Positions 735-20,340 are shown, counted from the stretch's first letter. The stretch: DNA of 42,343 nt from a virus (IMGVR_UViG_3300022897_000006:1-42343), one strand, 5' to 3'. Notes: generated by a model from the sequence alone, not told the origin. Made by a program: numbers and translations.

Positions 735-1262
735 GTGGCTAAGTACCCTGTCCTCTTCGCCGGCCAGCGCTTCACGGCCTCCCTGGCCGGATCGATGGAG
801 GCCGATTTCTACCTGAAGACCACGGCGACCGCGCGCGCGAGCACTACTACGGCCACCGACGACCCGGATCTCCAGGTCCCCGTGGTGGTGGGTGAGGTGT
901 CCCTGATCGAGTTCTATGTGAAGTACGCCTCCTCCACTTCGGCCACGGCCCTGCTGAAGACCCAGTGGGGATTCCCGGCCGGAACCACCGGCAACCGCCA
1001 GGTCGGTGGCGCCGGCAGCGGCGCCACCGATGGCAGCGCCGACAACATGGCCTCACACTGGGGTGTCCACGGTTCGGGTACGGCCGAGGTCTACGGCGCC
1101 CGGGGAACATCCGGTCAGCAGCTCTGGCTCTACGAGTGGGCCGTGGTCACCGTGGGCGCGACCGCCGGTAACGTCACCTTCCAGTGGGCGCAGAACGTAT
1201 CCAATGCCGCATCCACATCCGTGGTGAACGGCTCCTTCGCTCGCCGCACCCGATTCGCATAA
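735..1262 (+). CDS. Minor tail / tail fibre-associated protein
   Basis: GAGG RBS, GTG start; MAKYPVLFAGQRFTASL N-terminus and FQWAQNVS C-terminus resemble actinophage minor tail proteins; tail-end position. Confidence 0.7.
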   Translation: MAKYPVLFAGQRFTASLAGSMEADFYLKTTATARASTTTATDDPDLQVPVVVGEVSLIEFYVKYASSTSATALLKTQWGFPAGTTGNRQVGGAGSGATDGSADNMASHWGVHGSGTAEVYGARGTSGQQLWLYEWAVVTVGATAGNVTFQWAQNVSNAASTSVVNGSFARRTRFA

Positions 1263-1270
1263 GGAGCACC

Positions 1271-1861
1271 ATGACCCAGCCCATCCCACTCCCGGCCAAC
1301 GGGGTCCCCAACTACGCTGAGTTCAACTACGGCCCCTACGACTACGAGGACGGCCTGGCCCTGCCCGTCTCCCACGGAACGAATACCTGGGTGGCCGTGC
1401 CCTGGAATGTCGAGGTCTACGATCCTCCGCTCCTCGGCCGGCCGAACGGCCAGCACGACACCAACGGCTGGACGGTACTGAACGGGCCGTGCCAGTTCTG
1501 GGGGTCGGCTTTCGTCATGGTCCAGGGCGGATACGCGGGTGACTCGATGCACCTCATGGCGCGCCGGGCCAAGCGGGTCAACGGCGCCAACACGATCATC
1601 GGTCCGCCGTTCCAGGCCAGCGAGTGGTTCGTGGGCGAGCACGAGACCCACCCCCAGCCGGACGGCTCGGTCACCTATTCCAACTCGCACCTGATGGTCG
1701 CGCTGGACGGGATGCTCCAGGAGGACGAGCGCCTCCAACTCTGGGTGGACCACTGGAACGGGCCTGCTGGGACGGATGCCCGTATCGTGTCGGCAGGGGT
1801 CACGCTGCACTACACGCCGCGCCCCACGGACATCACAACCCCGGGAGGACTGGGAGCATGA
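1271..1861 (+). CDS. Hypothetical protein, possibly minor tail
   Basis: AAGGAG RBS before ATG 1271; stop overlaps endolysin start (ATGA). Confidence 0.65.
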   Translation: MTQPIPLPANGVPNYAEFNYGPYDYEDGLALPVSHGTNTWVAVPWNVEVYDPPLLGRPNGQHDTNGWTVLNGPCQFWGSAFVMVQGGYAGDSMHLMARRAKRVNGANTIIGPPFQASEWFVGEHETHPQPDGSVTYSNSHLMVALDGMLQEDERLQLWVDHWNGPAGTDARIVSAGVTLHYTPRPTDITTPGGLGA

Positions 1862-2640
1862 GCGGGATTCTGGAAGAGGTGGTCTGGCCAGGCATGTCCC
1901 GGCTGGAGCCCAAGAGCAAACTGGGCGGCGTGCTCGCGCGCAAGCCCGGGTATCACAACAGCCGTGATCACCTACCGGCCTCGGACTACTCAGTCCGCGA
2001 GTTCAGCGTGGACCGCCAGGGCGAGGCGGACGAGGGTTGCGCCATCGACTGGACCTTTCCCGACGCCCAGGCCGGGGACTATCGCACGATCAGCAAGTAC
2101 AGCAAGCGCCTGCTGGCCGCCGGCCAGGCGGGGCGCACGGCCGACCCGCGTACGGTCTACATCCGGGAGTTCTTCGGCCAGATCGACTCGGACTCCACGG
2201 TCGAGGGCTGGGATTTCGCCAAGCACACCACCAGCTCCAGCGACTCGTCCCACCTCTGGCACATCCACATCTCACTCCACCGGGCCTACAGCCAGGACGC
2301 CAAGGCCGCCGCGGCCATCCTCTCGATCCTGTCGGGGGAGAGTGTCCAGGACTGGCAGGCCCACTACGCAAGGAAGCCCACCATGGCCGCGATCGACGGA
2401 GACCTCCCCGAGCTTCAGCAGGGAGACGAAGACCAGCCCGGCAAGACCGCCTGGATCAGGCGCGCCCAGGCTGAGCTGAATCTGCTCACGGGCGCCGAGC
2501 TGGACGTGGACGGCGCCTACGGCGCGGCCTCGGCCGCGGCCGTCAAGGAGTTGATGGCCAGCGACTCCACCCGCTCCAGCACCAACGGCTCCAAGATCGG
2601 CATCCCGGAGTGGCGTCGGCTGTACGGCATCTGGGCCTGA
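1858..2640 (+). CDS. Endolysin: M15/LAS-like Zn peptidase plus C-terminal peptidoglycan-binding domain
   Basis: GYHN...AID...HLWHIHIS motifs; C-terminal IRRAQAELN...LDVDGAYGAASAAAV; followed by small membrane proteins. Confidence 0.8.
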   Translation: MSGILEEVVWPGMSRLEPKSKLGGVLARKPGYHNSRDHLPASDYSVREFSVDRQGEADEGCAIDWTFPDAQAGDYRTISKYSKRLLAAGQAGRTADPRTVYIREFFGQIDSDSTVEGWDFAKHTTSSSDSSHLWHIHISLHRAYSQDAKAAAAILSILSGESVQDWQAHYARKPTMAAIDGDLPELQQGDEDQPGKTAWIRRAQAELNLLTGAELDVDGAYGAASAAAVKELMASDSTRSSTNGSKIGIPEWRRLYGIWA

Positions 2641-2690
2641 TCGATCTATGATCACCGCATCCCAGCCTTGATCAGATCGGTGGACTATGA

Positions 2691-2981
2691 GTGAGCGCGC
2701 GACCTGGACGGTTCACCCTCGTGCGAGACGTGACCTCGTACGTGCTGGGACTTTTGTTGATCCTGAAACAGGCCGGGATCGGATTCGACCCTCCACCCCA
2801 AACCAACCTCCCCGTCCTGGTGACGGGCGGACTGCTCGTGGGCGTGCCGGGACTGGCGCAACTCGTGATGTGGTGGCTGGGGGGCCGAGCTGGTATGGAT
2901 GGGCAGCCATCACTGCCAGCTCCCCCGCCGTTGTCGTCCTCGGGTACGCAATCGCCCGAGCCCTCGGGAGCTGACCGGTGA
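2691..2981 (+). CDS. Membrane protein of lysis cassette (holin-like)
   Basis: Two hydrophobic segments; follows endolysin; GTGA overlap with next gene. Confidence 0.6.
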   Translation: MSARPGRFTLVRDVTSYVLGLLLILKQAGIGFDPPPQTNLPVLVTGGLLVGVPGLAQLVMWWLGGRAGMDGQPSLPAPPPLSSSGTQSPEPSGADR

Positions 2982-3295
2982 GAACAGACCAGCAGATCAC
3001 CGACGAGATCCGGACCGCAGTCCACCGGTTCCAGCCCGGGGTCTACGCCTGGCTTGCCGTCATGATCTCGGCCATCACGCTCCCGCTGCTGGCTCTGTTC
3101 GTGTCGATCCAACTCAACGAGCGGGCTGTGGAGAACGAGCGGACAGCCCGCGTGGCGGGGGAGCGGGCCATGTGCATCATCGTGGTGACCCTGGACTCCG
3201 CCTATAAGGAAGATCCACCCAAGACCCCCGCCGGCAAGAACGTCGCCGAGGGCATGGCCAACCTGCGGCTGGCCTATCACTGTGACGAGAGGTAA
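2978..3295 (+). CDS. Single-pass membrane protein of lysis cassette
   Basis: TM segment VYAWLAVMISAITLPLLALFVSI, then a helical domain with two Cys. Confidence 0.65.
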   Translation: MRTDQQITDEIRTAVHRFQPGVYAWLAVMISAITLPLLALFVSIQLNERAVENERTARVAGERAMCIIVVTLDSAYKEDPPKTPAGKNVAEGMANLRLAYHCDER

Positions 3296-3299
3296 CCCG

Positions 3300-3545
3300 A
3301 TGTCGTACGTGAGTGATCCAGCGAAGACCGCCGGCCCGAGCGGGGACGGCTCCAAGAGCCTGGCCAAGGAGAGCAAGGCCGGGCTGGCCGTGTCGTTCCT
3401 CGTGTTCTGGGTGGGCCAGGGCGTGGTGGACGGAATCGGCCAGCTCGACACCTCGGCCTGGAACGGCTGGTGGGCCTCGGCCGCCGTGGGCGCGCTCGCC
3501 ACGGTCTCCGGCGTCATCACGGCCTACCTGAAGAAGAACCGGTAG
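3300..3545 (+). CDS. Putative holin
   Basis: GAGG RBS; 81 aa, two hydrophobic helices, basic C-terminus (AYLKKNR). Confidence 0.6.
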   Translation: MSYVSDPAKTAGPSGDGSKSLAKESKAGLAVSFLVFWVGQGVVDGIGQLDTSAWNGWWASAAVGALATVSGVITAYLKKNR

Positions 3546-3548
3546 CCG

Positions 3549-3740
3549 ATGCTCACCCAGCGCCTCGTCCAGGACATGGGCAGCAACTCGGGCACGCTCA
3601 CCATCACGGCCGCCGCGGGCAACCTCGCCGACCTGGCGAGCCTGGCCGAGGAGCTCAATCTGCGGATGAACATCAAGACCGAGGGCACGATCACCACCAA
3701 CCCGCCGGCCCCACCGCCGACCATGGAGGACGAGGGCTAG
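3549..3740 (+). CDS. Hypothetical protein
   Basis: Abuts previous gene, high-GC3 codon usage, ends just before a terminator. Confidence 0.6.
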   Translation: MLTQRLVQDMGSNSGTLTITAAAGNLADLASLAEELNLRMNIKTEGTITTNPPAPPPTMEDEG

Positions 3741-3757
3741 TCCCGCCCACACAGACA

Positions 3758-3797
3758 GCGGCCCCGGTACCTACCCTCGCTCGGGTACCGGGGCCGC
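3758..3797. terminator. Stem-loop between convergent genes
   Basis: 14-bp arms GCGGCCCCGGTACC / GGTACCGGGGCCGC followed by GCTTT. Confidence 0.8.
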
Positions 3798-3810
3798 GCT
3801 TTGTGCTGGG

Positions 3811-3945
3811 TCAGACGGAACGCTTGGTGGTCTTCACGGCCTTGGCCGCCTTCTTGCTTCCAGTCTTGGCCGCCGCCTTGGCCGCTTTGGAGTAGCCCTG
3901 GGGGTTGCTCTTGTTGGCGTTGCTTCCGCTGCCGAACAGATTCAC
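3811..3945 (-). CDS. Small Lys/Ala-rich basic peptide (44 aa), not in ORF track
   Basis: MNLFGSGSNANKSNPQGYSKAAKAAAKTGSKKAAKAVKTTKRSV; GGGAG RBS; own promoter motif at 3974-3996. Confidence 0.7.
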   Translation of the reverse strand: MNLFGSGSNANKSNPQGYSKAAKAAAKTGSKKAAKAVKTTKRSV

Positions 3946-3973
3946 TGTCTCGCTCCCTCGCTCTTGGCTGATG

Positions 3974-3996
3974 TACCTAGGCTATAGGATACGTAG
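3974..3996 (-). promoter_or_regulatory. Repeated phage promoter motif
   Basis: CTACGTATCCTATAGCCTAGGTA with TTGCGA upstream. Confidence 0.7.
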
Positions 3997-4019
3997 CCTT
4001 GATCGCAAGGGGGCGGGAC

Positions 4020-4370
4020 TCACGGGTTGCGGTAGTAGCTGGAGATGCTGTCGTTGAACTGGCCCGTCATCGGCCCGGAGCTGTGGGCGTAGATCAGGCC
4101 CGGCGTGCTGGAGCACGTGGAGTTGTCGAACACCACGAACGAGACGCTCGCGCCGTTGGTGATGTAGCTCGTGCGGTTGTTGGCCGAGCTGGGCATCGTG
4201 TAGCAGACGCTGGGGCTCTTGCTGGCCGCCGTGAAGCTGGTCAGCAGATCCGAGGTGTCCGCGTACCGGTAGAAGTAGATGGAGCCCGTGGGGGCAGCCT
4301 GGGCAGGACTGGCGGTCATCGCCAGCAGGGACACGAACAGCGCCAGAAGCGCCGTGATTCTCTTGATCAT
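4020..4370 (-). CDS. Secreted beta/gamma-crystallin-like (peptidase inhibitor I36-like) protein
   Basis: Sec signal peptide ending AQA-A; two Cys; paired NNRTSYI and NDSISSY motifs. Confidence 0.65.
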   Translation of the reverse strand: MIKRITALLALFVSLLAMTASPAQAAPTGSIYFYRYADTSDLLTSFTAASKSPSVCYTMPSSANNRTSYITNGASVSFVVFDNSTCSSTPGLIYAHSSGPMTGQFNDSISSYYRNP

Positions 4371-4380
4371 TTCTCTCTCC

Positions 4381-4854
4381 TCATCGGACGGAAACGGTGG
4401 TCTTCGTGGTCACCGTAACGGACGGCCGCCGGTCTCCGGTGGAGCGGACCAGCATCACCAGCGTGGCCAGGATGGCCACCAGGAGCGCGGCGAACGGCGC
4501 GGCCCCGAGCGTGGCCACGCTCCACCAGCCCAGCCCGAACAGCACGCCGGCCGGGCCGAGCACCAGGGCGGTCACTTTGGCCCGCTTACGCCACCGGCTC
4601 GGCGCCGGCCGCGCGATGATCTCGACCGGAAGTGCGTACTGGCCCGCGCGAGTGCCCATGGTGATGAGCCGGAGCGTGCCCGTCTGGGCCAGCGTGCGCC
4701 CCCTGGAGAGCCGTTTCAGCTCGGCCAGCACATCGGTCTGGGTCTTGCCGTAGATCACGGCAGGGATGCGCTCGGGGGCCGCGTGGTGGACGACCTGGGC
4801 GGGCCTTTTGTGGCGGACGAGATCCGAGGAGGAGCGCGGGACAGGCAAGGACAT
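4381..4854 (-). CDS. Membrane protein, Spd (spread)-like
   Basis: Two C-terminal TM helices after a basic patch; near a TraB-like gene; Spd call is contextual. Confidence 0.6.
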   Translation of the reverse strand: MSLPVPRSSSDLVRHKRPAQVVHHAAPERIPAVIYGKTQTDVLAELKRLSRGRTLAQTGTLRLITMGTRAGQYALPVEIIARPAPSRWRKRAKVTALVLGPAGVLFGLGWWSVATLGAAPFAALLVAILATLVMLVRSTGDRRPSVTVTTKTTVSVR

Positions 4855-4863
4855 GGCTGGGTC

Positions 4864-5016
4864 CTATCGAGAGGGCCACGGGCTGGGCGTGGCGTGGGTC
4901 GGATTGCGGCCGGGAGTGCTCCAGGCCGGGTCTTGCATGGCCGCCAGGGTGATGACCAGAAGGCCGCCCAGAATGGCGATGATGCCGGAGACGAGGATCA
5001 GGTGGGCTGGTTTCAC
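4864..5016 (-). CDS. Small single-pass membrane protein (50 aa)
   Basis: GTG start overlaps upstream TGA (GTGA); N-terminal TM helix. Confidence 0.6.
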   Translation of the reverse strand: MKPAHLILVSGIIAILGGLLVITLAAMQDPAWSTPGRNPTHATPSPWPSR

Positions 5017-5606
5017 CGGATCATCATCCAGCCGATCAGGCCCACCAGGGCGACGAGCACACCCGAGGACATGACCAGACGCCGGCCCCAGGAGATCACG
5101 GTCACGCGGGCCTGGACGTAGAACGGCATGCCGTCCCGCTGGGCGCGCTCGGCCTTGGCCGCGCTCTTGGTGATCCGCCGCGGGTTCCAGTGGTTCTTGG
5201 CATCGTTGTAGCGCGGCCAGGTGGCGAGAATGACCAGCGTCTCCAGCGGCCGGAGAACCCACTTCCAGCAGAGCCACCACGGGAGCGGGATGACCTTGTA
5301 CCAGATCGGGTCCAGGTCGGACCAGGGCTGGGCGGACGCCGGCCGCGCCCCTTTGGTGACCAGCACGCCGTCCGAGGCGTAGCGCCCGTGGCCGAGGTGC
5401 TGGCGCTGGCGCAGGTAGTAGCTGACGGTCTCGCCCACGTAGGCGGTCTCGCGCCGGAAGGCGTGCCCGTGCTTGCGTGTGCGAACGAGGTAGACGCCCC
5501 CCTTGCGGCGCCGGACCTTGCGGCCCCAGCGCTTCAGCGGCCGGTACGCCACGGCGCCCGCGAGCGTGGCCGTGCCCACGAGGCTGGCCACGATGATCGG
5601 GTCCAT
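5013..5606 (-). CDS. Membrane-anchored GIY-YIG nuclease-fold protein
   Basis: GVYLVR...AYVGET...RQRQH...LETLVI...PRYN motifs; hydrophobic helices at both ends; GGAGG RBS. Confidence 0.75.
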   Translation of the reverse strand: MDPIIVASLVGTATLAGAVAYRPLKRWGRKVRRRKGGVYLVRTRKHGHAFRRETAYVGETVSYYLRQRQHLGHGRYASDGVLVTKGARPASAQPWSDLDPIWYKVIPLPWWLCWKWVLRPLETLVILATWPRYNDAKNHWNPRRITKSAAKAERAQRDGMPFYVQARVTVISWGRRLVMSSGVLVALVGLIGWMMIR

Positions 5607-5624
5607 CTCTCCTCCTGGAGAAAC

Positions 5625-5650
5625 GGCCCGGCCCCGTGTGGGGCCGGGCC
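5625..5650 (-). terminator. Intergenic stem-loop
   Basis: GGCCCGGCCCC / GGGGCCGGGCC arms, followed on the minus strand by GTTTCT. Confidence 0.6.
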
Positions 5651-5663
5651 TGGGCTGGGTGGG

Positions 5664-6110
5664 TCAGATGTACTGACCGGGGTTGGTGGTCGACTCCACC
5701 CGGACCTCGTCCGCGGGCTTGTCCTCGGGGCCGTGCCCGCGCTCGGCGTCCCGCAGGCGGATGGCCAGCATCATGAGGGCCATGGCGATCGAGCTGGGCG
5801 CCATCCGGAACATGGCCAGCGCGGCGAGGCGCTGGACCTGGCTGACCTGTTCCGCCGCGCTCTCCGGCGTGGCCGGGAGCTCCATCTCCAGGAAGGTGAA
5901 CATCTCGGCGACGACCTTGTCCAGGATCTCCTGGGCCTTCTCGTCCGCGCTCTTGACCGGACCCTTTCCGCCGAACAGGTCGGCAAGGAAGTCAGCGGCT
6001 TCACTGCCCACCAGTTCCTGGATCGGCACCACCGAGGGGTCGCCGGCCGCCAGAGCCTTGTCCAGCTCCTCCTGGGTCATCGCACCGATCTTGACGCACT
6101 CCTGGCACAT
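5664..6110 (-). CDS. Hypothetical protein (N-terminal CxxC)
   Basis: Start MCQEC after a purine-rich leader; promoter motif at 6191-6213. Confidence 0.75.
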   Translation of the reverse strand: MCQECVKIGAMTQEELDKALAAGDPSVVPIQELVGSEAADFLADLFGGKGPVKSADEKAQEILDKVVAEMFTFLEMELPATPESAAEQVSQVQRLAALAMFRMAPSSIAMALMMLAIRLRDAERGHGPEDKPADEVRVESTTNPGQYI

Positions 6111-6190
6111 ACCGCTCTCTTCTCTCTGGCTGGGCGTTTGGCCCACCGGGTGCGAGGTCTTCACCGTTCGACACCCGCATCCGGTGGGGA

Positions 6191-6213
6191 TACCTAGACT
6201 ATAGCCCAGGTGA
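6191..6213 (-). promoter_or_regulatory. Repeated phage promoter motif
   Basis: GGGCTATAGTCTAGGTA on minus strand. Confidence 0.7.
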
Positions 6214-6248
6214 TCACGTCCTGTCCAGGGCATGGCCGAGATCTCTCC

Positions 6249-6267
6249 TGTGCTATAGAATGGGATC
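6249..6267 (+). promoter_or_regulatory. Promoter motif, probably leaderless, for the translocase gene
   Basis: TGTGCTATAGAAT; TAGAAT lies 6 nt before ATG 6268; no SD. Confidence 0.65.
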
Positions 6268-8010
6268 ATGAGCAAGAGCACCCAGCCGTATCACGCCGCG
6301 CCCTATCCCCTGCCCCTGGGCTTCAACGGCCGCCTAGCCATGCCCTATCGGTGGTTCTCTGGCCGCCCCCTCAACGGGCACCGCTACACGGACGCCACCG
6401 GCTTTCACTACGGCACCATGGCCACGGACATCTCCGGCCGCGCGTCCACATACAAGCTGCTGCCCGGCTACAAGCGCTTTCTCTACGCGCGGTTGCCGAT
6501 CATGCTGGCGCCGGCCGTGGCCGTGGAGGGCGTCCTGGACCCGGCCGCGCTCGGCTGGGGCCTGTCCATCGCGGGTGTCCTGGCCGTCCCCAAGGTGGCC
6601 AAGGCCAGGCGTGTCCGGACCTTCCGCCGCGGCGTCATCGAGCCGGTGGCCGCCAGTGTGTCCGCTGTCCTGAAAGAGCGTTACGTGTCCGGGATGGGAC
6701 ACACCTGGGTCACTGTCCCGCTGGACTACCGGGACGACGAGGAGGCCAAGATCGTTGTCCGGCTCCCGATGGCCTGGACAGGCGACGACGGGGACAGGAC
6801 ACGGCTGGCCAAGGTGGTGGCCGAGCGCCTCCAGGTCGAGGACATCACGCCGAGCTGGACACTGTCCGGCGCCGCGCCCCACGTGACCTTCTCCGTCCCG
6901 CCCAAGCCGCCCAGGTTGGTCACCTGGGACAGTGCCGTGGCCGATCTGGCCGCCAGCAAGGACACCGCGCCGATGCTCGGGTACGGCCCCCGCCGCAAGA
7001 TCGAGACGTTTGATCTGAAGCTGGAGGCGCCGCACCTGCTGGTGGCCGGGGGGTCGGGCGCCGGCAAGAGCGAGATCATCGCCGCGATTGTGTCCCAGTT
7101 CATGCGCAAGGGCTACGGCGTGATGGTCCTGGACGCCAAGTTCACCAGCCACATGTGGCTCCGCAAGGTGCCGGGCGTGCTCTACGCCAGCGAATCCGAG
7201 GAGCTGCACGAGGCGTTGATCTGGCTCGACCAGGAGCTACTGCGCCGCGCCCGGTTCGTCGCGATGGGCGGGGACCCGGCCGAGCTGGAGCCGCTGCTGG
7301 CCGTGCTGGAGGAGATGAACGGCGCCAGCAACCGCCTGCGGGCCTACTGGAAGTCGATCAAGGACACGTCGGACCCGATGATGAGCCCGGCCCTGACCGC
7401 GCTTCAGAACCTGGCCGCCATGGGCCGTGAGCTGCGGGTTCACATCGTGCTGGCCGGTCAGAGCCTCACGGCCAAGGCCATCGGCGGCCCCGAGACCAGG
7501 GAGAACTTCGGCGGCCGGATGTTCGGCCGGGCCACGGCGGCCCAGTGGCGCATGCTGGCCCCCCAGATCAAGAAGCCGCCGGCCAAGGCGGGGCCGCCGG
7601 GACGCTGGCACATCGTGGTGGGCGAGGTGGTCCGGGAGCTTCAGGCGCCCTTCTCCGACATGAAAAACGAGGAGGCCCGCTTGATCGAGTTCGCCACCGG
7701 GGGCGCACCATTCCCGGACGTGCCGGAGATGATGGCCGCCTCCCCGGTGGAGGGTGGTGGTGGGGGTGGTGGTCAAATGACAGAGACCCCCAGTTCAGAG
7801 CTACCCCCACCCGAGGGGATCTCGCTCCGCCAGTACGCCGAGGAGGCCGGAATCGATCTCCAGCGCCTGCTGAAGTGGCGTGAGAAGCGCTCCGATTTCC
7901 CCTCCTGGGTGGCGATCGGGGGGCGCAATACCCACCTCTTCGACCGGGACCACCTCAGGGCCTACGTGCGCGAGCGGCTACGGGAGCCGGTCACCGCGGA
8001 CGAGGGCTAG
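6268..8010 (+). CDS. FtsK/SpoIIIE-family DNA translocase, TraB-like (actinomycete plasmid transfer type)
   Basis: N-terminal hydrophobic segments; PHLLVAGGSGAGKS Walker A; LLAVLEEMN Walker B; MGRELRVHIVLAGQ; C-terminal HTH-like domain. Confidence 0.88.
   Translation: MSKSTQPYHAAPYPLPLGFNGRLAMPYRWFSGRPLNGHRYTDATGFHYGTMATDISGRASTYKLLPGYKRFLYARLPIMLAPAVAVEGVLDPAALGWGLSIAGVLAVPKVAKARRVRTFRRGVIEPVAASVSAVLKERYVSGMGHTWVTVPLDYRDDEEAKIVVRLPMAWTGDDGDRTRLAKVVAERLQVEDITPSWTLSGAAPHVTFSVPPKPPRLVTWDSAVADLAASKDTAPMLGYGPRRKIETFDLKLEAPHLLVAGGSGAGKSEIIAAIVSQFMRKGYGVMVLDAKFTSHMWLRKVPGVLYASESEELHEALIWLDQELLRRARFVAMGGDPAELEPLLAVLEEMNGASNRLRAYWKSIKDTSDPMMSPALTALQNLAAMGRELRVHIVLAGQSLTAKAIGGPETRENFGGRMFGRATAAQWRMLAPQIKKPPAKAGPPGRWHIVVGEVVRELQAPFSDMKNEEARLIEFATGGAPFPDVPEMMAASPVEGGGGGGGQMTETPSSELPPPEGISLRQYAEEAGIDLQRLLKWREKRSDFPSWVAIGGRNTHLFDRDHLRAYVRERLREPVTADEG
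6563..6964. repeat. GGACA/TGTCC pentamer array inside the translocase gene
   Basis: 17 copies in ~400 bp by manual count, both orientations. Confidence 0.8.
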
Positions 8011-8016
8011 GCAGAC

Positions 8017-8046
8017 GAAAACCCCAGGCCGAGGCCTGGGGTTTTC
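8017..8046. terminator. Bidirectional intrinsic terminator
   Basis: GAAAACCCCAGGCC-GA-GGCCTGGGGTTTTC between convergent genes. Confidence 0.9.
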
Positions 8047-8063
8047 TGTGTCCCGAAGTTGAT

Positions 8064-8873
8064 CTAGCCCAGGTCCTCGGCGCCGGCCGGGGCGCCCGAG
8101 GTGGGCTGACCGTTCAGCGCGGCCCGGATGCGCCGGATGGTCCGGGTGGACACCTCGTAGTGTCCCGCCAGCAGCTCATCCACCTGGCCGGGGGTCAGGA
8201 CATCGGCGTCCTGGGCGGCCAGGATCAGGCTCTCGATCTCGGCCCGCCCGTCCTTGGCCTTGGCCACCCGTGTCCGCTGGGGAAGCTTGCCGGGGACGAC
8301 CGGGACAGCGGGCGTGCTGTCCATCGGGCCGAGCCGGTTCTCCAGGTTGGCCAGCCAGTCCGTGTCCGCCTGGGTCAAGGTGTCCGGGACCTGGGACAGA
8401 TCCTGGGTGTTGTCCAGGTTGACTGCTGGGCCGCTGTCCGGCAGGGACACGGCCACGTACTTGGCCACCTCGGGGCGGACGATGTCCACTGTCCGCGAGG
8501 CCAGCAGCATGACCGTGCAGCCGAGCATCACACCGTCGATGGCCAGCGGTCCGGTGATCTGGGCGATGCCGGGCTCGCCAGCCTTGATCATGAGCGCGTG
8601 AAGGTTCACGTACGACGTGATGGCCGTGGGCACGGTAACCGTGAGCAGCGCTCCTTGTCCGACGCGAGCCAGGAAGCCGTGGACGCCACGGTTGCGGACC
8701 AGCACCTCAACGGCGATGAACAGGAACACCGGCCAGATGACGGCCATGGGGATGCGTAGCACGATGTTGACCGTGGTCTCGGTCAGGCAGGCGTTGGCCA
8801 CGTTGCCCGCCACGCTGGCCAACACGCCGGCCACCAGTCCGGCCCTCGCCCACTTCGGTCCGTTTTCGTTCAT
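8064..8873 (-). CDS. DUF2637-like multi-pass membrane protein with C-terminal HTH (AICE/plasmid spread-protein type)
   Basis: Four TM segments with SYVNLHAL...GEP...GPLAIDG signature; C-terminal LAGHYEVSTRTIRRIR HTH; ATG 8873 after GAGAGCG. Confidence 0.8.
   Translation of the reverse strand: MNENGPKWARAGLVAGVLASVAGNVANACLTETTVNIVLRIPMAVIWPVFLFIAVEVLVRNRGVHGFLARVGQGALLTVTVPTAITSYVNLHALMIKAGEPGIAQITGPLAIDGVMLGCTVMLLASRTVDIVRPEVAKYVAVSLPDSGPAVNLDNTQDLSQVPDTLTQADTDWLANLENRLGPMDSTPAVPVVPGKLPQRTRVAKAKDGRAEIESLILAAQDADVLTPGQVDELLAGHYEVSTRTIRRIRAALNGQPTSGAPAGAEDLG
8148..8494. repeat. GGACA/TGTCC pentamer array inside the DUF2637 gene
   Basis: 14 copies in ~350 bp by manual count. Confidence 0.8.
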
Positions 8874-8896
8874 CGCTCTCTCGCTTTCTCTTGGTG

Positions 8897-8934
8897 TATC
8901 TAGACTATAGCACACGTAGCCCGTCCGCTGTCAA
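8897..8934 (-). promoter_or_regulatory. Repeated phage promoter motif with TTGACA -35
   Basis: TTGACA-N19-TATAGT; CTACGTGTGCTATAGTCTAGATA. Confidence 0.8.
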
Positions 8935-8947
8935 CCCCGAACGTGGA

Positions 8948-8976
8948 CAGGCCCCGGGGGATCAGCCCGGGGCCTG
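8948..8976 (-). terminator. Stem-loop after DUF3307 gene
   Basis: CAGGCCCCGGG / CCCGGGGCCTG arms. Confidence 0.65.
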
Positions 8977-8997
8977 CGAGAGCAGAGGCTAGGGGGG

Positions 8998-9516
8998 TCA
9001 GCTCAAGCCCGCCATGATGAGGGCCGCCACGAACACGCCCCAGAAGATGTGCCAGCTCTGGTCCAGCGCCCAGGCGCCGGTCCCCAGGCTGGGGTTGTCC
9101 AAGCGAACGGCCTCGTGATACTTGCGGACGGGCTCGGAATCGTTGGGCCAGACGGTCACGTCCCGGGGGACGCCCAGGGTTAGGAATGCGGCCTTGCCCG
9201 GGAGTGCCCGCGCCAGCCGGAACATGAGCCCGTGCTCGCGCCGGTCCGCCAGGTAGTGGGTTACGCCCGAGACCAGCAGGCCCAGAATGAATCCGAAGGC
9301 CGAGACGTAGACGCCGGTCACCACCTCCACCAAGGTCACACACAGGGCCTGGGTCACCAGGTAGCTGGCCACGTGCGCCAGGCAGTGGAGCGAGCCATCG
9401 GGTGCGCCCTTGTGCTTGGCCTGGGCGTCCGTCTGGACCCAGTAGTCCCCCACGTGATGGCCCGCGTAAAGGGCCAGGCCGTAAGCGCCGGCCGCTGCTA
9501 GTGCGGTAGTTGACAT
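8998..9516 (-). CDS. DUF3307-like membrane protein
   Basis: HHVGDYWVQT...H...THYLADRR...DQSWH motifs; AAGGAG RBS before ATG 9516. Confidence 0.8.
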   Translation of the reverse strand: MSTTALAAAGAYGLALYAGHHVGDYWVQTDAQAKHKGAPDGSLHCLAHVASYLVTQALCVTLVEVVTGVYVSAFGFILGLLVSGVTHYLADRREHGLMFRLARALPGKAAFLTLGVPRDVTVWPNDSEPVRKYHEAVRLDNPSLGTGAWALDQSWHIFWGVFVAALIMAGLS

Positions 9517-9552
9517 TGATCGCTCCTTGTTCGGTTGGTCGTCACCTAAGCC

Positions 9553-9575
9553 TACCATGGCTATAGCACACGTAA
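9553..9575 (-). promoter_or_regulatory. Repeated phage promoter motif (leftward)
   Basis: TTACGTGTGCTATAGCCATGGTA. Confidence 0.7.
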
Positions 9576-9595
9576 GTGTCGGGTGCACGACAGAC

Positions 9596-9611
9596 GAGAG
9601 AGCGCTCTCTC
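9596..9611. promoter_or_regulatory. 16-bp perfect palindrome between divergent promoters, candidate operator
   Basis: GAGAGAGCGCTCTCTC. Confidence 0.45.
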
Positions 9612-9612
9612 C

Positions 9613-9646
9613 TTGCGCTTCCGCTACGTGTGCTATAGACTAGGTA
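9613..9646 (+). promoter_or_regulatory. Repeated phage promoter motif (rightward)
   Basis: TTGCGC-N17-TAGACT; CTACGTGTGCTATAGACTAGGTA. Confidence 0.8.
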
Positions 9647-9671
9647 CATCACCAAGCGAGAGGGGCACACA

Positions 9672-9932
9672 ATGAAGACCACGGGAGCGATCATCACGGA
9701 GATCCTGGAGACGGTCGGAGGCCGGATGAACGAGTGGACCCGGATCGCAGACATCGCCCAGAGCGCCGGCCTCACCCCCGAGGAGATCAACGAGGGGATC
9801 ATGGAGCTCCTGGGGGATGAGGAGTTCCGGGCCGAGCCCGAGCCCTTCGGCCACCGGACCACCGAGGCGGACAAGATCTACGGACCGGTGATCGGGGGAG
9901 AGCAGCGCCACCTGATCAAGTGGGGGGCGTAA
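9672..9932 (+). CDS. Small acidic protein, possible winged-HTH fold
   Basis: GAGGGG RBS; RIADIAQSAGLTPEEINEGIMELL resembles an HTH. Confidence 0.7.
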   Translation: MKTTGAIITEILETVGGRMNEWTRIADIAQSAGLTPEEINEGIMELLGDEEFRAEPEPFGHRTTEADKIYGPVIGGEQRHLIKWGA

Positions 9933-9950
9933 AGATCTTGAGCGGGGGCC

Positions 9951-9987
9951 TTGCGCCCCCGCTTCTACGTGTGCTATAGTATAGATA
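9951..9987 (+). promoter_or_regulatory. Repeated phage promoter motif
   Basis: TTGCGC-N18-TATAGT; CTACGTGTGCTATAGTATAGATA. Confidence 0.8.
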
Positions 9988-10016
9988 CAAGGCGGGAACG
10001 AGAGAGGGAGACAGAG

Positions 10017-10202
10017 ATGAACCAGATCGAGAAGGCCACCGGAACCCAGACCACGATCACCCTGACCCAGATGTCCGGCCATGAGGTGGAGGTGGTCACG
10101 GTGATCGGGAACGGGGGCCCGGGGGTCCGGGTCCTGTCAGACGAGAAAGCGGCCACGCTGGCCAGTCTGGTCGCGGCCTTCCTGAAGGAGCACGGGCACT
10201 GA
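10017..10202 (+). CDS. Hypothetical protein (61 aa)
   Basis: GGGAG RBS, own promoter, terminator follows. Confidence 0.7.
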   Translation: MNQIEKATGTQTTITLTQMSGHEVEVVTVIGNGGPGVRVLSDEKAATLASLVAAFLKEHGH

Positions 10203-10211
10203 TCAAGGGGA

Positions 10212-10245
10212 AGGCCCCCGCCCGATAAGGGTGGGGGCCTCCTTT
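10212..10245. terminator. Terminator between convergent genes
   Basis: AGGCCCCCGCCC / GGGTGGGGGCCT then CCTTT. Confidence 0.8.
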
Positions 10246-10265
10246 ATGCCCTGGTTTGACACGTT

Positions 10266-10559
10266 TCAATCGTCGTACAGGTCCGTGACCCACTCCTCCA
10301 GGTCGCGCCGGCCGGTCCGCTCCGGCGCTACCCACCCCCGGCCGCCGGCCAGGCGCCTGGTGGGTTGCCTGGCGTCCTCCAGCGAGTGCCGGGCCTGCCG
10401 CATCACCTTGCGCCTCCAGCGCCTGCTGGGGCGCGGCAACGGCCGCCTGGGGAGCGGCCGGTCCGGATTGCCCAGCGTGGCCGCTCCCCAGGCGGTGAGC
10501 CCGATGGCGAACAAGAGAAGCCCGATCAGGAGCGCCTGCTCTCCCGTGAGGCCGATCAC
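10266..10559 (-). CDS. Single-pass membrane protein, Arg-rich
   Basis: GTGA overlap with upstream stop; TM LLIGLLLFAIGLTAWGAA. Confidence 0.65.
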   Translation of the reverse strand: MIGLTGEQALLIGLLLFAIGLTAWGAATLGNPDRPLPRRPLPRPSRRWRRKVMRQARHSLEDARQPTRRLAGGRGWVAPERTGRRDLEEWVTDLYDD

Positions 10560-10738
10560 GGGATGGCCGGGCACTTGAGATCGACATGATTCTCGGCATC
10601 GGCAACGGCCTCGTCCAGCGGCCGGAGGCAGTCCCCTTGCTCGTGGCAGTCCAGACACGTCCAGCGGTAGTCCCCGTCCTCGTCGGGCTCGCCCAGGGTC
10701 ACTTCCGCGTGATCGCCCTCGATCTTGATCGTTGCCAT
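10556..10738 (-). CDS. Small Zn-finger-like protein
   Basis: WTCLDC...H...C; AAGGAG RBS; promoter motif upstream. Confidence 0.7.
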   Translation of the reverse strand: MATIKIEGDHAEVTLGEPDEDGDYRWTCLDCHEQGDCLRPLDEAVADAENHVDLKCPAIP

Positions 10739-10754
10739 TCCGCTCTCCTTCCGT

Positions 10755-10777
10755 TACCTAGACTATAGCACACATAG
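10755..10777 (-). promoter_or_regulatory. Repeated phage promoter motif
   Basis: CTATGTGTGCTATAGTCTAGGTA. Confidence 0.75.
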
Positions 10778-10780
10778 CCG

Positions 10781-11500
10781 TCACGGGTACGGATGCTCGG
10801 CCGCGAAACCCCACGCCTGGACGAGGTGCTCCGCCCCGAAGAGCAAGCGGGTGGCCAGGGTGCTCGGCGTGACGCACTGGTGCGGGACGTTGACCATGAT
10901 CTCCTTGCCTGTCAGGCTCCACGCCTGGTCCGCCAGGACCGAACAGATGGCCTCCACGGGGAGGCCCGTATCCAGGTCCTGGCCAGAGGGGAGCATCACG
11001 GGGTTGCCCGACCACGGCCAGTTCTGGCGCCGGCCAATCCACGCCTCCAGTTTGGGCGTGGCGATGCCCCAGTGCCAGGCCGCCAGGGCGGCATAGCTGG
11101 CCGGGCTGTACGCCACGTTGTGCTCCACCATGAGCCGGGCGATGGCTGCCGCATCCAGCGCCTGGCTGGGGTAGTCCTCCACCGGCCGCGCGTACGCGTG
11201 CCGGGGCGTCCAGTGGGTGGCGTAGCGCATCTCGATCTCCTCGGCGCCACCCGGCATGGCCTGAACGAGGCGTGGCGCCGTGATGACGCCTGTGGGCCAC
11301 TCGCGGTCCGCCGGCCGGGTCTCGCTGGCCTCCACCACGATGCCGACGTGCCGGACATCGAGCGGCCCCACTCGGAAGCCGCCATCGCACAGCAGCTCTC
11401 CGAGGCCCACGCCCACGCCGGCCAGGCCCCCGATCGGGCCGAACATTAGGTCACCCGGGCGGAGATCCTCCAGGCGTTCGATCTTGACGAGGTTGGTCAT
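10781..11500 (-). CDS. Permuted papain-like NlpC/P60 (YiiX/YaeF-type) amidase
   Basis: LRPGDLMF...RHVGIVV...LVQA...ICSVLADQAW...VTPSTL; His before Cys. Confidence 0.8.
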   Translation of the reverse strand: MTNLVKIERLEDLRPGDLMFGPIGGLAGVGVGLGELLCDGGFRVGPLDVRHVGIVVEASETRPADREWPTGVITAPRLVQAMPGGAEEIEMRYATHWTPRHAYARPVEDYPSQALDAAAIARLMVEHNVAYSPASYAALAAWHWGIATPKLEAWIGRRQNWPWSGNPVMLPSGQDLDTGLPVEAICSVLADQAWSLTGKEIMVNVPHQCVTPSTLATRLLFGAEHLVQAWGFAAEHPYP

Positions 11501-11763
11501 TCGATCACGTCCAGGATGTTGCGCAAGGTCAGAAGGCCCTCATCTTCGTCCGGGTTGTCCAGGGCGGCCTGTGCCAGCTCCTGGATATTCCTGATCTTGG
11601 CCTCCAGCTCCTCCTGGTAGGTGTCGTACTGCGGACCGGTGATCGGTTGCCGGGCCCGCCACGCCATCTCGTCCTTGATCTGCTCCTCCGCCCTGATCTT
11701 GCGGGCCTCCCAATCGGGCTCCGGATGGTGATCCGGGTTGCTCCAGCTACCTACGCTGCTCAT
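11497..11763 (-). CDS. Hypothetical protein
   Basis: ATGA-coupled to both neighbours. Confidence 0.75.
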   Translation of the reverse strand: MSSVGSWSNPDHHPEPDWEARKIRAEEQIKDEMAWRARQPITGPQYDTYQEELEAKIRNIQELAQAALDNPDEDEGLLTLRNILDVIE

Positions 11764-12176
11764 GCTGCCTCGCTCCTGGTCAGCGGCTTGTTGCCGCGCT
11801 TCTCATTACACAGCTTGTGCGCCGGCCGTTGGTTGGCCAGCGAGTCCCGGCCGCCCAGCGAGCGCGGCCGGACGTGGTCCCGGGTGAAGCTCTGGGGGTG
11901 GGGCCACCTCAGCTCCAGGTCGATCACGGCCCGATGGTCCGTGACGCCCGCGGACCAGCAGATGTGACAGACCGGCCCCCACTTGCGGATCAACGCCTCC
12001 CGGATACGGCGCCTGGTCGCCTCCCCGGTCTTGTCCGAGGTGGAGCGCCGGGAGCTGGGCTGGGTGCGCCCGCGGTTGTGCTGGCGCCGCGCCGGCCTGG
12101 CCCACTGGGGGACCGGCATGAACGAGGGAAACTCGCACTCGGGCCGGTCCGCCAGGTAGAACAGGCCGCGCGTCAT
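11760..12176 (-). CDS. HNH endonuclease
   Basis: CHIC...TRDHVRPRSLGGRDSLANQRPAHKLCN. Confidence 0.88.
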   Translation of the reverse strand: MTRGLFYLADRPECEFPSFMPVPQWARPARRQHNRGRTQPSSRRSTSDKTGEATRRRIREALIRKWGPVCHICWSAGVTDHRAVIDLELRWPHPQSFTRDHVRPRSLGGRDSLANQRPAHKLCNEKRGNKPLTRSEAA

Positions 12177-12631
12177 TTCAGGAGCGCCCGAACGCGCTGG
12201 ACAGCGTGCTCACTCCAGCCATCCTCACCCGTGCCGTCCTCGCCAACTTCTTGGAGAAGCTCTTGAATGGCGGTCCGCAGGATGCCTAGGCGCACCGTGG
12301 CCGCCTTCTCCTGGGGGCCTTCCGGGTCCGGGGCGGCCACGAGGTCCGAGGCGCCGGAACGGACAAGCGCTTGACGCCAGCCCTTGGTCAGCGCGCCGGC
12401 CGTGCTCTGCTCGGCGAGCCAGTGGCTCTCGCCCGTGTCGTCCAGCCAGAGATAGCGAATGCCGTAAGGGGTGTCGATCGAAAACCCCTCCAGGTTCAGC
12501 GCGGGTTGATCGCCGAACGAATAGGACCGGACCGCTGGCCGCTCGGCCGCGCGCGTCGCGTCCCGGACCAGCTGGGCCAAAAAGACCTTGGCCGAATGGT
12601 CGAACTCCACGATCATTTTCTGAATCGCCAT
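12173..12631 (-). CDS. Hypothetical protein
   Basis: GGAG RBS; ATGA overlap with HNH gene. Confidence 0.7.
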   Translation of the reverse strand: MAIQKMIVEFDHSAKVFLAQLVRDATRAAERPAVRSYSFGDQPALNLEGFSIDTPYGIRYLWLDDTGESHWLAEQSTAGALTKGWRQALVRSGASDLVAAPDPEGPQEKAATVRLGILRTAIQELLQEVGEDGTGEDGWSEHAVQRVRALLK

Positions 12632-12654
12632 CGTGCTCTCCGTTCGGATACGGG

Positions 12655-12688
12655 CGAGGCCCGGACTCCCCCTCGGGTCCGGGCCTCG
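12655..12688 (-). terminator. Stem-loop after SSB-like gene
   Basis: CGAGGCCCGGAC / GTCCGGGCCTCG arms. Confidence 0.7.
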
Positions 12689-12711
12689 TCACTTCAGGGT
12701 GGCTGGGTCGG

Positions 12712-13275
12712 TTACTCGAACGCCTTGGCGTCCTCGGCGCCCTCGGCCGCTGTGGCCAGGCGCTCGTTGATCGAGATGATCAGGTCCTTGTTGGCCTTGA
12801 TGATCTCCCGGTCTGCCTCGGACGGCTCGGAGATCGAGAAGGCCGGGGAGCCCTTCTTGTACTTGGTGCTGGCCTGGGTGTTGATCCGGCCGATGACCGG
12901 GCGGAACTTCAGCGGTACCGAGGGGGCGATGACGTTGCCGTCAGCGTCCTTACGGGCCTTGCTCCAGCCGTCCACCCGGGGCTTGAGCCGGGAGTGGATA
13001 CCGGCGGTCGAGTGCTGAAGCTCCACCTCCACGGGCGCAGGCCCGACGAGGTCCGTGTACTGGTCGCCCTCGGGGCCATCGTCCAGGACCAGGGTCAGCG
13101 AGTCGGTAAAGCCATAGTCGCCGTTGTCGCCCTTGCGGGTGCCGTTGGCCTTGGCCCAGATGGCGACCAGGCGGCCGACCGTCTTGGGGTTGGAGCTGGA
13201 CGCCAGCGGAGACAGGTCGTCCACGCTGGGGAACTCGGAGCTGGCATCGTCGTAGAACTCGTCCACGTCAGACAT
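12712..13275 (-). CDS. Putative ssDNA-binding protein
   Basis: Beta-rich pattern (GRLVAIW...LVLDDG...VIGRI...PAFSI), acidic termini, downstream of exonuclease; function inferred. Confidence 0.5.
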   Translation of the reverse strand: MSDVDEFYDDASSEFPSVDDLSPLASSSNPKTVGRLVAIWAKANGTRKGDNGDYGFTDSLTLVLDDGPEGDQYTDLVGPAPVEVELQHSTAGIHSRLKPRVDGWSKARKDADGNVIAPSVPLKFRPVIGRINTQASTKYKKGSPAFSISEPSEADREIIKANKDLIISINERLATAAEGAEDAKAFE

Positions 13276-13320
13276 CTACTGCTCTTCTCTTCTCTGTGAC
13301 CAGATCATGATCGCCTGGCC

Positions 13321-13374
13321 TAGCGCCCTAGCCGGGATTCGCACCCGATTTCAGCCTGACCTCTCGCCTAGGGA
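13321..13374 (-). ncRNA. tRNA-like mini-element (acceptor stem and T-arm, truncated D and anticodon arms)
   Basis: CCCTAG/CTAGGG stem; TCGGG-TGCGAAT-CCCGG T-arm; 3' end C-G-CTA; only 19 nt between acceptor 5' strand and T-arm. Confidence 0.5.
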
Positions 13375-13499
13375 CCGTCTCGATCAACCCCAGTTGACGT
13401 CCCGCATTGGCTTCCACCTCCTCGGCTTTGGGTGTCGGGCGGGAGGCTTGCCTTATTGGGGAGTTGCCATCACATGATCCCCGCCCGACATGTATAACC

Positions 13500-14501: not shown

Positions 14502-14701
14502 TGGAGTGCCACCCTCTCGCACATCGTGTCCGCGTGAATCCAGCTACCGTGACCGTCTGCGCGGGCGTCCTCGCCCGGGAGGATGGGCTCCGGGCAGGAC
14601 TCGCAATCGGTCTCGTAGGTGGCCGTGAAGATCGGCCCGAGCTGGCCCGCGCGGACCGCAGGCGCCGGCACGGGCAGGGCCTCGTCGTAGAAGTCACTCA
14701 C
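14498..14701 (-). CDS. Small Zn-finger protein
   Basis: CESC...WIHADTMC. Confidence 0.75.
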   Translation of the reverse strand: MSDFYDEALPVPAPAVRAGQLGPIFTATYETDCESCPEPILPGEDARADGHGSWIHADTMCERVALQ

Positions 14702-14927
14702 CTAGCACCACGTCTCCCCCGATGTCCTGGCCACAGTGCAAGGCCGCCGCCCCGAAGAACCGGCCGATCTCGGCCAGGGCGTTGGCCGTGATCCCGTACC
14801 GGACGCCCCCCACGATCAGGACCACGCCGTGGGGTGCGTCCGTCTGGCACTCGATCCGGCCCTCTGCCGTGCTCACGGTCAGGCCGAGACCCTGCCAGGC
14901 CGTGTCCACCCAGAGCCCGCGGATCAT
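14694..14927 (-). CDS. Hypothetical protein
   Basis: Coupled operon position, GGAG RBS. Confidence 0.7.
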   Translation of the reverse strand: MIRGLWVDTAWQGLGLTVSTAEGRIECQTDAPHGVVLIVGGVRYGITANALAEIGRFFGAAALHCGQDIGGDVVLGE

Positions 14928-20238: not shown

Positions 20239-20261
20239 GGTCAGGCACCCGAGACAAGGAG

Positions 20262-20292: not shown

Positions 20293-20340
20293 GCACGCAC
20301 GCACAACAGCGTCACCAACCAGCAGGGAGCGTACCCAACT

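What the first reader, a model, noticed from the sequence alone, without database searches (positions are those of the whole stretch)
4020..9516. Phage-encoded TraB/Spd-like DNA transfer-and-spread module in an integrase-less virion genome
Seen: a complete phage genome with a contiguous block encoding an FtsK/SpoIIIE ATPase with membrane anchor and C-terminal HTH, a convergent DUF2637-like membrane-HTH protein, a DUF3307-like protein, a membrane GIY-YIG protein, small membrane proteins and a secreted protein. Several of these genes have their own copy of the phage promoter motif, so the block is wired into phage regulation. Established: in filamentous actinomycetes a single TraB translocase moves double-stranded plasmid/AICE DNA between hyphae, and Spd membrane proteins spread it within mycelium; a conjugative Streptomyces plasmid-phage (pZL12) is a partial precedent. 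Inference: this small phage, with no visible integrase or ParAB, may pump its own DNA across cross-walls or into neighbouring hyphae without a virion.
Basis: partly seen in the sequence, partly recalled or inferred. Interest (0 to 1): 0.9.

Follow-up and report, generated by a model that had tools for sequence, protein, structure and literature searches.

The report
Plasmid-type DNA pump in lytic actinophages
A family of small soil phages with no detectable integrase or partition gene keeps a membrane DNA-pump gene of the kind carried by actinomycete linear plasmids in every near-complete genome examined, and likely uses it to push phage DNA between compartments of a filamentous host, which is untested.

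Summary
The genes are real. ORF 6268-8010 is an intact FtsK-type translocase. It belongs to an untested subfamily (pRL2-11 type) whose plasmid members sat on linear actinomycete plasmids in 11 of 11 records opened. It groups apart from tested TraBs and from chromosomal FtsK. It is a core gene: 7 of 7 terminase-picked relatives at least 76% complete carry it, and 0 of 17 carriers have an integrase. The DUF2637 protein (13 of 14), GIY-YIG protein (12 of 14) and one membrane protein (10 of 14) travel with it; the DUF3307 and secreted genes do not. The 'phage promoter' looks like an extended -10 box. The host is probably filamentous (Micromonosporaceae). No clt site and no SpdB2 homology were found, and the C-terminal domain is excisionase-like. 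Best reading (0.5): it spreads replicating phage DNA across cross-walls during lytic growth. Precedents exist: pZL12, SpdB2-like genes in phiC31, and cultured virulent Streptomyces phages with a pIJ101-type Tra. This scan noted phage TraB/DUF2637 modules on at least seven other genomes. Unexpected: CGCCGGC occurs 84:0 by strand genome-wide, but this polarity does not track the translocase.

The parts
6268..8010 (+). Tra: FtsK-type ATPase of the pRL2-11 (linear-plasmid) subfamily; N-terminal hydrophobic helices, motor domain, C-terminal excisionase/MerR-like HTH
8064..8873 (-). DUF2637-like membrane protein with C-terminal HTH; convergent with tra; conserved in 13 of 14 near-complete carriers
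8017..8046 (.). GC hairpin flanked by A and T runs: likely bidirectional terminator between tra and the DUF2637 gene
   Evidence: read from sequence
5013..5606 (-). GIY-YIG nuclease-like protein with terminal hydrophobic helices; 12 of 14 genomes; co-varies with the phage backbone, not with Tra
4381..4854 (-). Membrane protein with C-terminal hydrophobic hairpin; 10 of 14 genomes; only a weak hydrophobic match to pIJ101 SpdA
4864..5016 (-). 50-aa membrane protein overlapping the GIY-YIG stop (GTGA); conservation not assessed (not called by my ORF finder)
4020..4370 (-). Secreted-type protein; found only in this genome among 14; not core
5664..6110 (-). 148-aa hypothetical protein, first gene of the leftward run; 2 of 14 genomes
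8998..9516 (-). DUF3307-like membrane protein; 2 of 14 genomes; the family also occurs on linear plasmids; accessory
6199..6260 (.). Divergent pair of extended -10 promoter motifs (GCTATAG at 6205 on -, 6252 on +); tra likely nearly leaderless
8892..8920 (-). Promoter motif of the DUF2637 gene
9555..9575 (-). Promoter motif of the DUF3307 gene
758..42140 (+). Genome-wide polar 7-mer CGCCGGC, 84 copies on +, 0 on -; link to Tra not shown

Best explanation
The phage encodes an intact membrane-type FtsK DNA translocase related to transfer proteins of actinomycete linear plasmids, and it likely uses this pump, with the DUF2637 membrane protein as a probable helper, to move replicating phage DNA across hyphal cross-walls of a probably filamentous host during lytic growth. 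Shown: genes, intact motor motifs, fold, subfamily, retention across the clade, and no detectable integrase or ParA. Inferred: early expression from strong host-type promoters; a hexameric pump at the septal membrane; loading through the excisionase-like C-terminal domain or at free DNA ends (the 'end first' idea for linear plasmids); neighbouring compartments become virion factories without a new adsorption step. The gain would be access to a whole mycelium from one infection.
For: Motor: Walker A, Walker B variant (EE, shared with plasmid members), G386-R387 and Q398 are invariant in 48 homologues. The model (pLDDT 81.7) matches TcpA and FtsK motors best.

Relatives: best plasmid hits are 32-33% over 70-94% of the length, 56 of 82 records Streptomyces. 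11 of 11 records opened are linear; in pRL2, pFRL6 and pPR2 a DUF2637 gene lies just upstream. The family is in 14 of 301 Micromonosporaceae genomes. Of 12 contexts fetched, 4 have a DUF2637-like gene directly upstream and 4 lie beside phage tail or lysis genes.

Retention: 7 of 7 terminase-picked records at least 76% complete carry it; 0 of 15 more distant terminase relatives do. Integrase in 0 of 17 carriers against 7 of 7 non-carriers tested. Three deep Tra lineages occupy the same locus and do not track capsid, portal or helicase (Mantel rho -0.01 to 0.15, n.s.), so alleles are swapped but never lost in the set examined.

Convergence: TP1604 and Geonosis carry a different Tra, 43-46% identical to pIJ101 Tra; Geonosis is described as virulent (PMC11536984, passages). 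Thoma 2015 (PMC4447253, passages) shows TraB/Spd-dependent spreading in mycelium and suggests phage SpdB2 homologues may spread phage DNA.
Against: No member of this subfamily has been tested in the papers found; SAP1, SLP2 and pZL12 lack it. It groups apart from pIJ101, pSG5, pJV1 and SLP2 Tra (98/97). The C-terminal domain is not FtsK-gamma-like. No clt-like repeat cluster lies near tra (low sensitivity). The DUF2637 family does not match SpdB/SpdB2 candidates or phiC31 gp25, and my phage DUF2637 profile did not hit the plasmid DUF2637 proteins. 8 of 11 plasmids lack an annotated DUF2637 gene next to this Tra; in two 54-kb plasmids DUF2637 sits with a different FtsK while this subfamily lies near a MobF relaxase. 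Tra and DUF2637 co-vary only weakly (rho 0.25, p 0.037) and are transcribed convergently. FtsK-like genes are common in phages of unicellular Mycobacterium and Bacillus (41 of 61 and 155 of 260 records). The host is inferred only from capsid and lysin relatives.
Confidence: 0.5

Rival explanations
1. The ATPase handles DNA inside the infected compartment only: it anchors or moves replicating phage DNA at the membrane, pulls in the entering genome, or clears host DNA together with the membrane GIY-YIG nuclease.
For: FtsK-like genes occur in phages of unicellular hosts. Universal retention fits an essential replication role as well. Geonosis' FtsK is suggested to act in replication (PMC11536984, passage). 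No clt and no SpdB2 homology were found.
Against: Closely related temperate phages manage without it (G035 and 15 terminase relatives). Its nearest relatives are plasmid transfer-region genes and it keeps a DUF2637 neighbour. The GIY-YIG gene does not co-vary with Tra (rho -0.08).
Confidence: 0.23
2. The phage persists as a plasmid-like carrier state and transfers conjugatively to other mycelia, like pZL12; the Tra replaces integration and partition.
For: Integrase and Tra are mutually exclusive in the records tested. Linear plasmids are maintained partly by intrahyphal spread (Hsu and Chen, seen only as a cited title in PMC13492992).
Against: No ParA in 14 carriers; an Xre repressor over cut-off in only 1 of 14. 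A scan of named genomes with the capsid protein found one MAG contig, of the integrase-bearing sister type.
Confidence: 0.12
3. The membrane proteins act in exclusion or host control: they block superinfecting phages or incoming conjugative elements, or interfere with host FtsK and septation.
For: The block lies in a variable region of small membrane genes with individual strong promoters. PHROGs files the ATPase and DUF3307 under moron/host takeover.
Against: Exclusion genes are usually small and patchy (own knowledge); a 580-aa ATPase with invariant catalytic residues in every near-complete genome is not typical. No direct evidence.
Confidence: 0.12
4. A recently captured plasmid fragment without a role.
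For: Dagobah carries a truncated member (309 aa, no membrane segment or HTH).
Against: The best 120 homologues are 51-100% identical, on contigs up to 45 kb, with invariant motifs; it is kept in every near-complete genome examined.
Confidence: 0.03

Closest known systems
pRL2-11-type Tra of actinomycete linear plasmids (pRL2, pFRL6, pPR2, Pseudonocardia p1)
   Same: Near full-length homology (32-33%), shared N-terminal motif, EE Walker B, HTH_17-like C-terminus, DUF2637 neighbour in some; one supported clade.
   Different: Here in a virion-encoding genome; DUF2637 convergent rather than upstream in 12 of the 14 near-complete genomes' layout type (upstream only in G001); function untested in both settings.
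Streptomyces TraB/Spd dsDNA transfer and spreading (pSVH1, pIJ101, pSG5, pJV1, pWTY27; PMC4447253, PMC3583192)
   Same: Single FtsK-type ATPase with a membrane segment and a C-terminal DNA-binding domain, next to small membrane proteins.
   Different: Separate clade; no FtsK-gamma-type winged helix; no clt found; no SpdB2 homology; no GntR TraR.
Plasmid-phage pZL12/phiZL12 (Zhong 2010; seen via record NC_013420 and citations)
   Same: Tailed phage genes and a Tra in one replicon.
   Different: pZL12 is 90 kb with ParAB, integrase and GntR; its Tra is not of this subfamily; the present clade is 42-45 kb with none of these.
Streptomyces cluster BG phages (TP1604, Geonosis)
   Same: Phage carrying a plasmid-type Tra; Geonosis is described as virulent.
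   Different: Their Tra is pIJ101-type with a MarR-like winged helix; cultured, so testable; the papers read mention no transfer role.
phiC31/VWB SpdB2-like genes (PMC4447253)
   Same: Same proposed role, spreading of phage DNA in mycelium.
   Different: Temperate phages; no Tra in the phiC31 half examined; gp25 is not DUF2637.

Membership tests
Streptomyces TraB/Tra conjugative translocase | FtsK/SpoIIIE motor with intact Walker A/B, arginine finger and sensor | tested here: met
   Walker B reads EE, as in plasmid members
Streptomyces TraB/Tra conjugative translocase | N-terminal membrane anchor | tested here: inconclusive
   helices 67-135 in the model; hydropathy peak only 1.66, and the same scale misses pSG5 TraB
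Streptomyces TraB/Tra conjugative translocase | C-terminal FtsK-gamma-like winged helix | tested here: not met
   helix-helix-strand-strand-helix order; weak HTH_17/MerR hits (E 0.007-0.12)
Streptomyces TraB/Tra conjugative translocase | clt site with short direct repeats | tested here: inconclusive
   none near tra; the scan found the pJV1 repeats but nothing clt-like in pIJ101 or pSG5
Streptomyces TraB/Tra conjugative translocase | Groups with tested TraBs | tested here: not met
   separate clade, 98/97; long branches among the references
Streptomyces TraB/Tra conjugative translocase | Hexameric pore that transfers dsDNA between hyphae | not testable with these tools
   needs experiment
pRL2-11-type linear-plasmid Tra subfamily | Full-length homology and shared clade | tested here: met
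pRL2-11-type linear-plasmid Tra subfamily | DUF2637 gene adjacent | tested here: met
   13 of 14 phages; but only 3 of 11 plasmids by annotation
SpdB2-type spread protein (for ORF 8064-8873) | Four membrane helices plus DNA-binding C-terminal part | tested here: inconclusive
   four hydrophobic segments by eye, three by hydropathy; HTH in 6 of 15 members
SpdB2-type spread protein (for ORF 8064-8873) | Sequence homology to SpdB/SpdB2 | tested here: not met
   the pSG5 and pJV1 candidates were chosen by position and size (recalled), not by annotation
Conjugative phage-plasmid (pZL12 type) | Partition genes and repressor for a plasmid prophage | tested here: not met
   ParA 0 of 14 with pZL12 as positive control; Xre 1 of 14; no ParB family search run, none among 54 window ORFs scanned
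AICE (PMC3218068) | Integrase | tested here: not met
   0 of 17 carriers
AICE (PMC3218068) | Prim-Pol or RepSA/RepAM replication gene plus Tra | tested here: met
   Prim-Pol at 20341-22974
Chromosomal FtsK/SpoIIIE | Groups with septal FtsK and bears a gamma domain | tested here: not met
GIY-YIG nuclease (ORF 5013-5606) | GIY and YIG strands with catalytic R, H, E, N | tested here: met
   invariant in 15 members; weak Pfam and SLX1 hits

The most novel reading that the evidence does not exclude
A large uncultured clade of strictly lytic phages has replaced lysogeny with virion-free spread: a linear-plasmid-type pump moves naked phage genomes end-first through a mycelium and into touching hyphae, steered in some members by a genome-wide polar CGCCGGC signal, the first KOPS-like code in a virus.
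Probability: 0.15. Interest if true: 0.92.

Novelty: new variant of a known kind. Interest (0 to 1): 0.62.

Why it matters
How a phage exploits a compartmentalised bacterial mycelium is an open question. If lytic phages pump their DNA through cross-walls, one infection could consume a whole colony, bypass receptor-level resistance and blur the line between phage infection and conjugation in soil actinomycetes. The survey also shows the idea can be tested now: the cultured phages TP1604 and Geonosis carry a pIJ101-type Tra, and pRL2 offers a small plasmid on which to test this untested Tra subfamily. The polar CGCCGGC motif is a sharp sequence signal that reports on either a directional motor or an orientation-dependent host defence.

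Tried and rejected
1. Polar motif as a Tra loading code: found in only 3 of 14 near-complete carriers (84:0, 85:0, 47:0), whose Tra proteins are 26-65% identical to the window's. Two close Tra relatives (62%) lack GCCGGC altogether or are unbiased. A gapped-motif scan found no equivalent in the others; G007 and G034 show weaker skews. Not counted as support.
2. A gene cluster that seemed to track the motif (17216-17653) also has homologues in unbiased genomes.
3. CCGCCGCC skew in pRL2, pPR2 and NBC909 (22:0, 8:0, 14:0) is modest against Markov expectation and also appears in pIJ101. Weak lead only.
4. SAP1 TraA/TraB as a tested member: no match.
5. The SpdA match of the 4381-4854 family is confined to a hydrophobic stretch (E 0.005 among 2742 frames). 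Not accepted.
6. The named-genome scan with the Tra alignment found no confirmed relative among 20 pattern matches.
7. tRNA: none.
8. Cluster look-ups named only 1 of 20 outer homologues (Actinoplanes).
9. No RNA holder listed. Contigs from four runs cover the block with few differences. Contigs that jump at the promoter repeats are most simply repeat matches.
10. Phage Tra monophyly was neither shown nor rejected (p-AU 0.188, 24 rows, 9 left out).
11. A Tra-DUF2637 complex prediction and the VIA fold searches could not be run, so binding and the exact C-terminal fold stay open.
12. Look-alike stretches in earlier findings: none.
Full report
Observation. The window is a complete 42.2-kb tailed-phage genome: 167-nt end overlap, rated 100% complete, with head, tail, lysis and replication genes. 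The ATPase (6268-8010) passes the FtsK_SpoIIIE cut-off. DUF2637 and DUF3307 are sub-threshold for the window proteins, but 11 of 15 DUF2637-like members match at E<=0.05. The GIY-YIG protein keeps its catalytic residues in 15 members. The repeated motif GCTATAG (15 copies against 2.4 expected) precedes tra, DUF2637, DUF3307 and the leftward run. I read it, from general knowledge, as an extended -10 promoter.

The ATPase. A 48-sequence alignment keeps Walker A, an EE Walker B, G386-R387 and Q398 invariant; plasmid relatives share the EE. The AlphaFold model (pLDDT 81.7) matches the pCW3 coupling protein TcpA and FtsK motors best. The C-terminal domain has an excisionase/MerR-like order of elements and weak HTH_17 hits, also in the pFRL6 protein. 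It is not the winged helix that TraB uses to read clt repeats (PMC3583192, passages). Plasmid hits are 82 records, 56 of them Streptomyces, with weaker hits in unicellular genera. I opened 11 of the 82 and all are linear. Three have an annotated DUF2637 gene just upstream. Two 54-kb plasmids instead pair DUF2637 with another FtsK and keep this subfamily near a relaxase. In trees of the motor domain, the phage proteins, these plasmid proteins and Micromonosporaceae proteins form one clade (98/97), apart from pIJ101, pSG5, pJV1 and SLP2 Tra and from chromosomal FtsK (long branches among references; some rows left out). SAP1, SLP2 and pZL12 have no member, so I found no tested member.

Distribution in phages. 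167 of 7,996 scored candidates are homologues; the best 120 are 51-100% identical and lie on contigs of at most 45.2 kb. A profile finds 570 clusters at E<=1e-30. Among 29 records searched, all 7 picked by terminase (51-58% identical) and at least 76% complete carry the gene. Three fragments under 50% complete do not, and 0 of 15 more distant terminase relatives do. Tyrosine integrase: 0 of 17 carriers against 7 of 7 non-carriers tested (6 of those 15, plus provirus G035). Serine recombinase 0 of 17; ParA 0 of 14; Xre repressor over cut-off 1 of 14. In 14 near-complete carriers (the window, 8 found through Tra and 5 through terminase), my own ORF calls give DUF2637 13, GIY-YIG 12, the 4381-4854 protein 10, DUF3307 2 and the secreted protein 1. 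Gene order is nearly fixed: lysis genes, then membrane and GIY-YIG genes leftward, tra rightward, DUF2637 convergent. The block persists across different head modules. Tra distances do not follow capsid, portal, tape measure or helicase (rho -0.01 to 0.15), whereas those genes follow each other (0.5-0.85): three deep Tra lineages have been exchanged at one locus without loss. GIY-YIG follows the backbone, and DUF2637 follows Tra only weakly (0.25).

Host. GC is 65-71% in most windows. The only capsid relative among named genomes is in a Micromonosporaceae MAG (54%), and it is closest to the temperate sister G035. Lysin relatives occur in 79 of 301 genomes of that family, best 59% (no control family was searched; one of the 79, G255, is unpublished). 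The Tra subfamily is in 14 of 301; of 12 contexts fetched, 4 have DUF2637 directly upstream and 4 lie beside phage genes. One outer homologue is named from Actinoplanes. Holders of the block are leaf-litter and soil metagenomes. A filamentous host is probable, not shown.

An unexpected signal. CGCCGGC occurs 84 times on + and never on -: 57:0 in rightward-coded and 27:0 in leftward-coded parts. Synonymous shuffles expect about 50:22. Other GCCGGC contexts are purged (5 against 31 expected). G002 (85:0) and G006 (47:0) share the pattern; G001, G003, G012 and the phiC31 half examined lack CGCCGGC on both strands; the other near-complete carriers show no such polarity. A KOPS-like loading code for the pump is attractive, but the pattern does not track Tra lineage. 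Avoidance in both orientations, or in one, is what an orientation-dependent restriction enzyme would produce (type III, as for T7; recalled). I put about 0.55 on host restriction, 0.2 on Tra and the rest on replication or packaging.

Mechanism. Most likely (0.5) the pump and the DUF2637 protein are made early, sit at cross-walls and pass linear or concatemeric phage DNA into neighbouring compartments, extending a lytic infection through the mycelium. Rivals: DNA handling inside one compartment (0.23), a conjugative carrier state (0.12), exclusion or host control (0.12), a relic (0.03). Against the main reading: no clt, no SpdB2 homology, and FtsK-like genes in phages of unicellular hosts.

What is known. 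[quoted passage not shown] PMC5511901 was read whole. Zhong 2010, Fukada 2025, Lee 2011 and Hsu and Chen were seen only as citations. No supplements were opened. Ten searches of the open library listed no paper testing a Tra in a lytic phage or a pRL2-11-type protein; subscription papers are mostly missing. TP1604 and Geonosis carry a pIJ101-type Tra, and Dagobah a truncated member of the present subfamily. Earlier notes of this scan describe similar modules in seven other genomes, mostly temperate or larger.

Verdict. A real, conserved variant of a known kind: a linear-plasmid-type translocase as a core gene of small, apparently lytic phages. It may work like TraB/Spd, but it fails membership on clade, C-terminal domain and Spd homology. 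Interest 0.62.

Noticed in passing
window 758-42140, whole genome: CGCCGGC 84:0 by strand, independent of coding direction; same in G002 (85:0) and G006 (47:0); absent on both strands in G001, G003, G012. Orientation-dependent restriction or a KOPS-like code.
   Followed up: yes
window 23022-23061 and 23135-23174: Perfect 40-nt inverted repeat with internal G-rich 9-nt repeats, 73 nt apart, right after the primase-polymerase gene; candidate replication origin.
   Followed up: no
L200:19917-21965 (Streptomyces phage TP1604); Geonosis PP750866: Cultured cluster BG phages encode a Tra 43-46% identical to pIJ101 Tra, preceded by a 338-aa HTH-ended ORF; a ready test system.
   Followed up: partly
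L001:2547-3476 (Streptomyces phage Dagobah gp87): Truncated member of this Tra subfamily lacking membrane segment and HTH; similar short paralogues follow the full gene on several linear plasmids (L229-L231, L234).
   Followed up: partly
window 35947-36690 and 36706-37131: Two adjacent major-tail-protein-like genes (PHROG 9522 and 10528).
   Followed up: no
window 30343-30915: Peptidoglycan-binding-domain protein between portal and prohead protease, present in 7 near-complete relatives including the window.
   Followed up: no
window 33627-34574: Glycosyltransferase-like gene within the head-tail region (weak PHROG hits).
   Followed up: no
window 3811-3945 (-): 44-aa Lys/Ala-rich basic peptide with its own promoter-like motif; histone-like repeat pattern.
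   Followed up: no
window 10781-11500 (-): 239-aa protein conserved in 11 of 14 near-complete genomes, no Pfam hit; conserved H and C residues suggest a permuted NlpC/P60-type enzyme (label from recall).
   Followed up: no
L239, L243, L246 (Micromonosporaceae genomes G317, G153, G311): The same Tra subfamily sits beside tail and lysis genes in long bacterial contigs, suggesting prophages that also carry it; integrase not checked.
   Followed up: partly
window 9600-10780: Cluster of very short ORFs, each with its own copy of the promoter motif: an early-gene cassette array.
   Followed up: no
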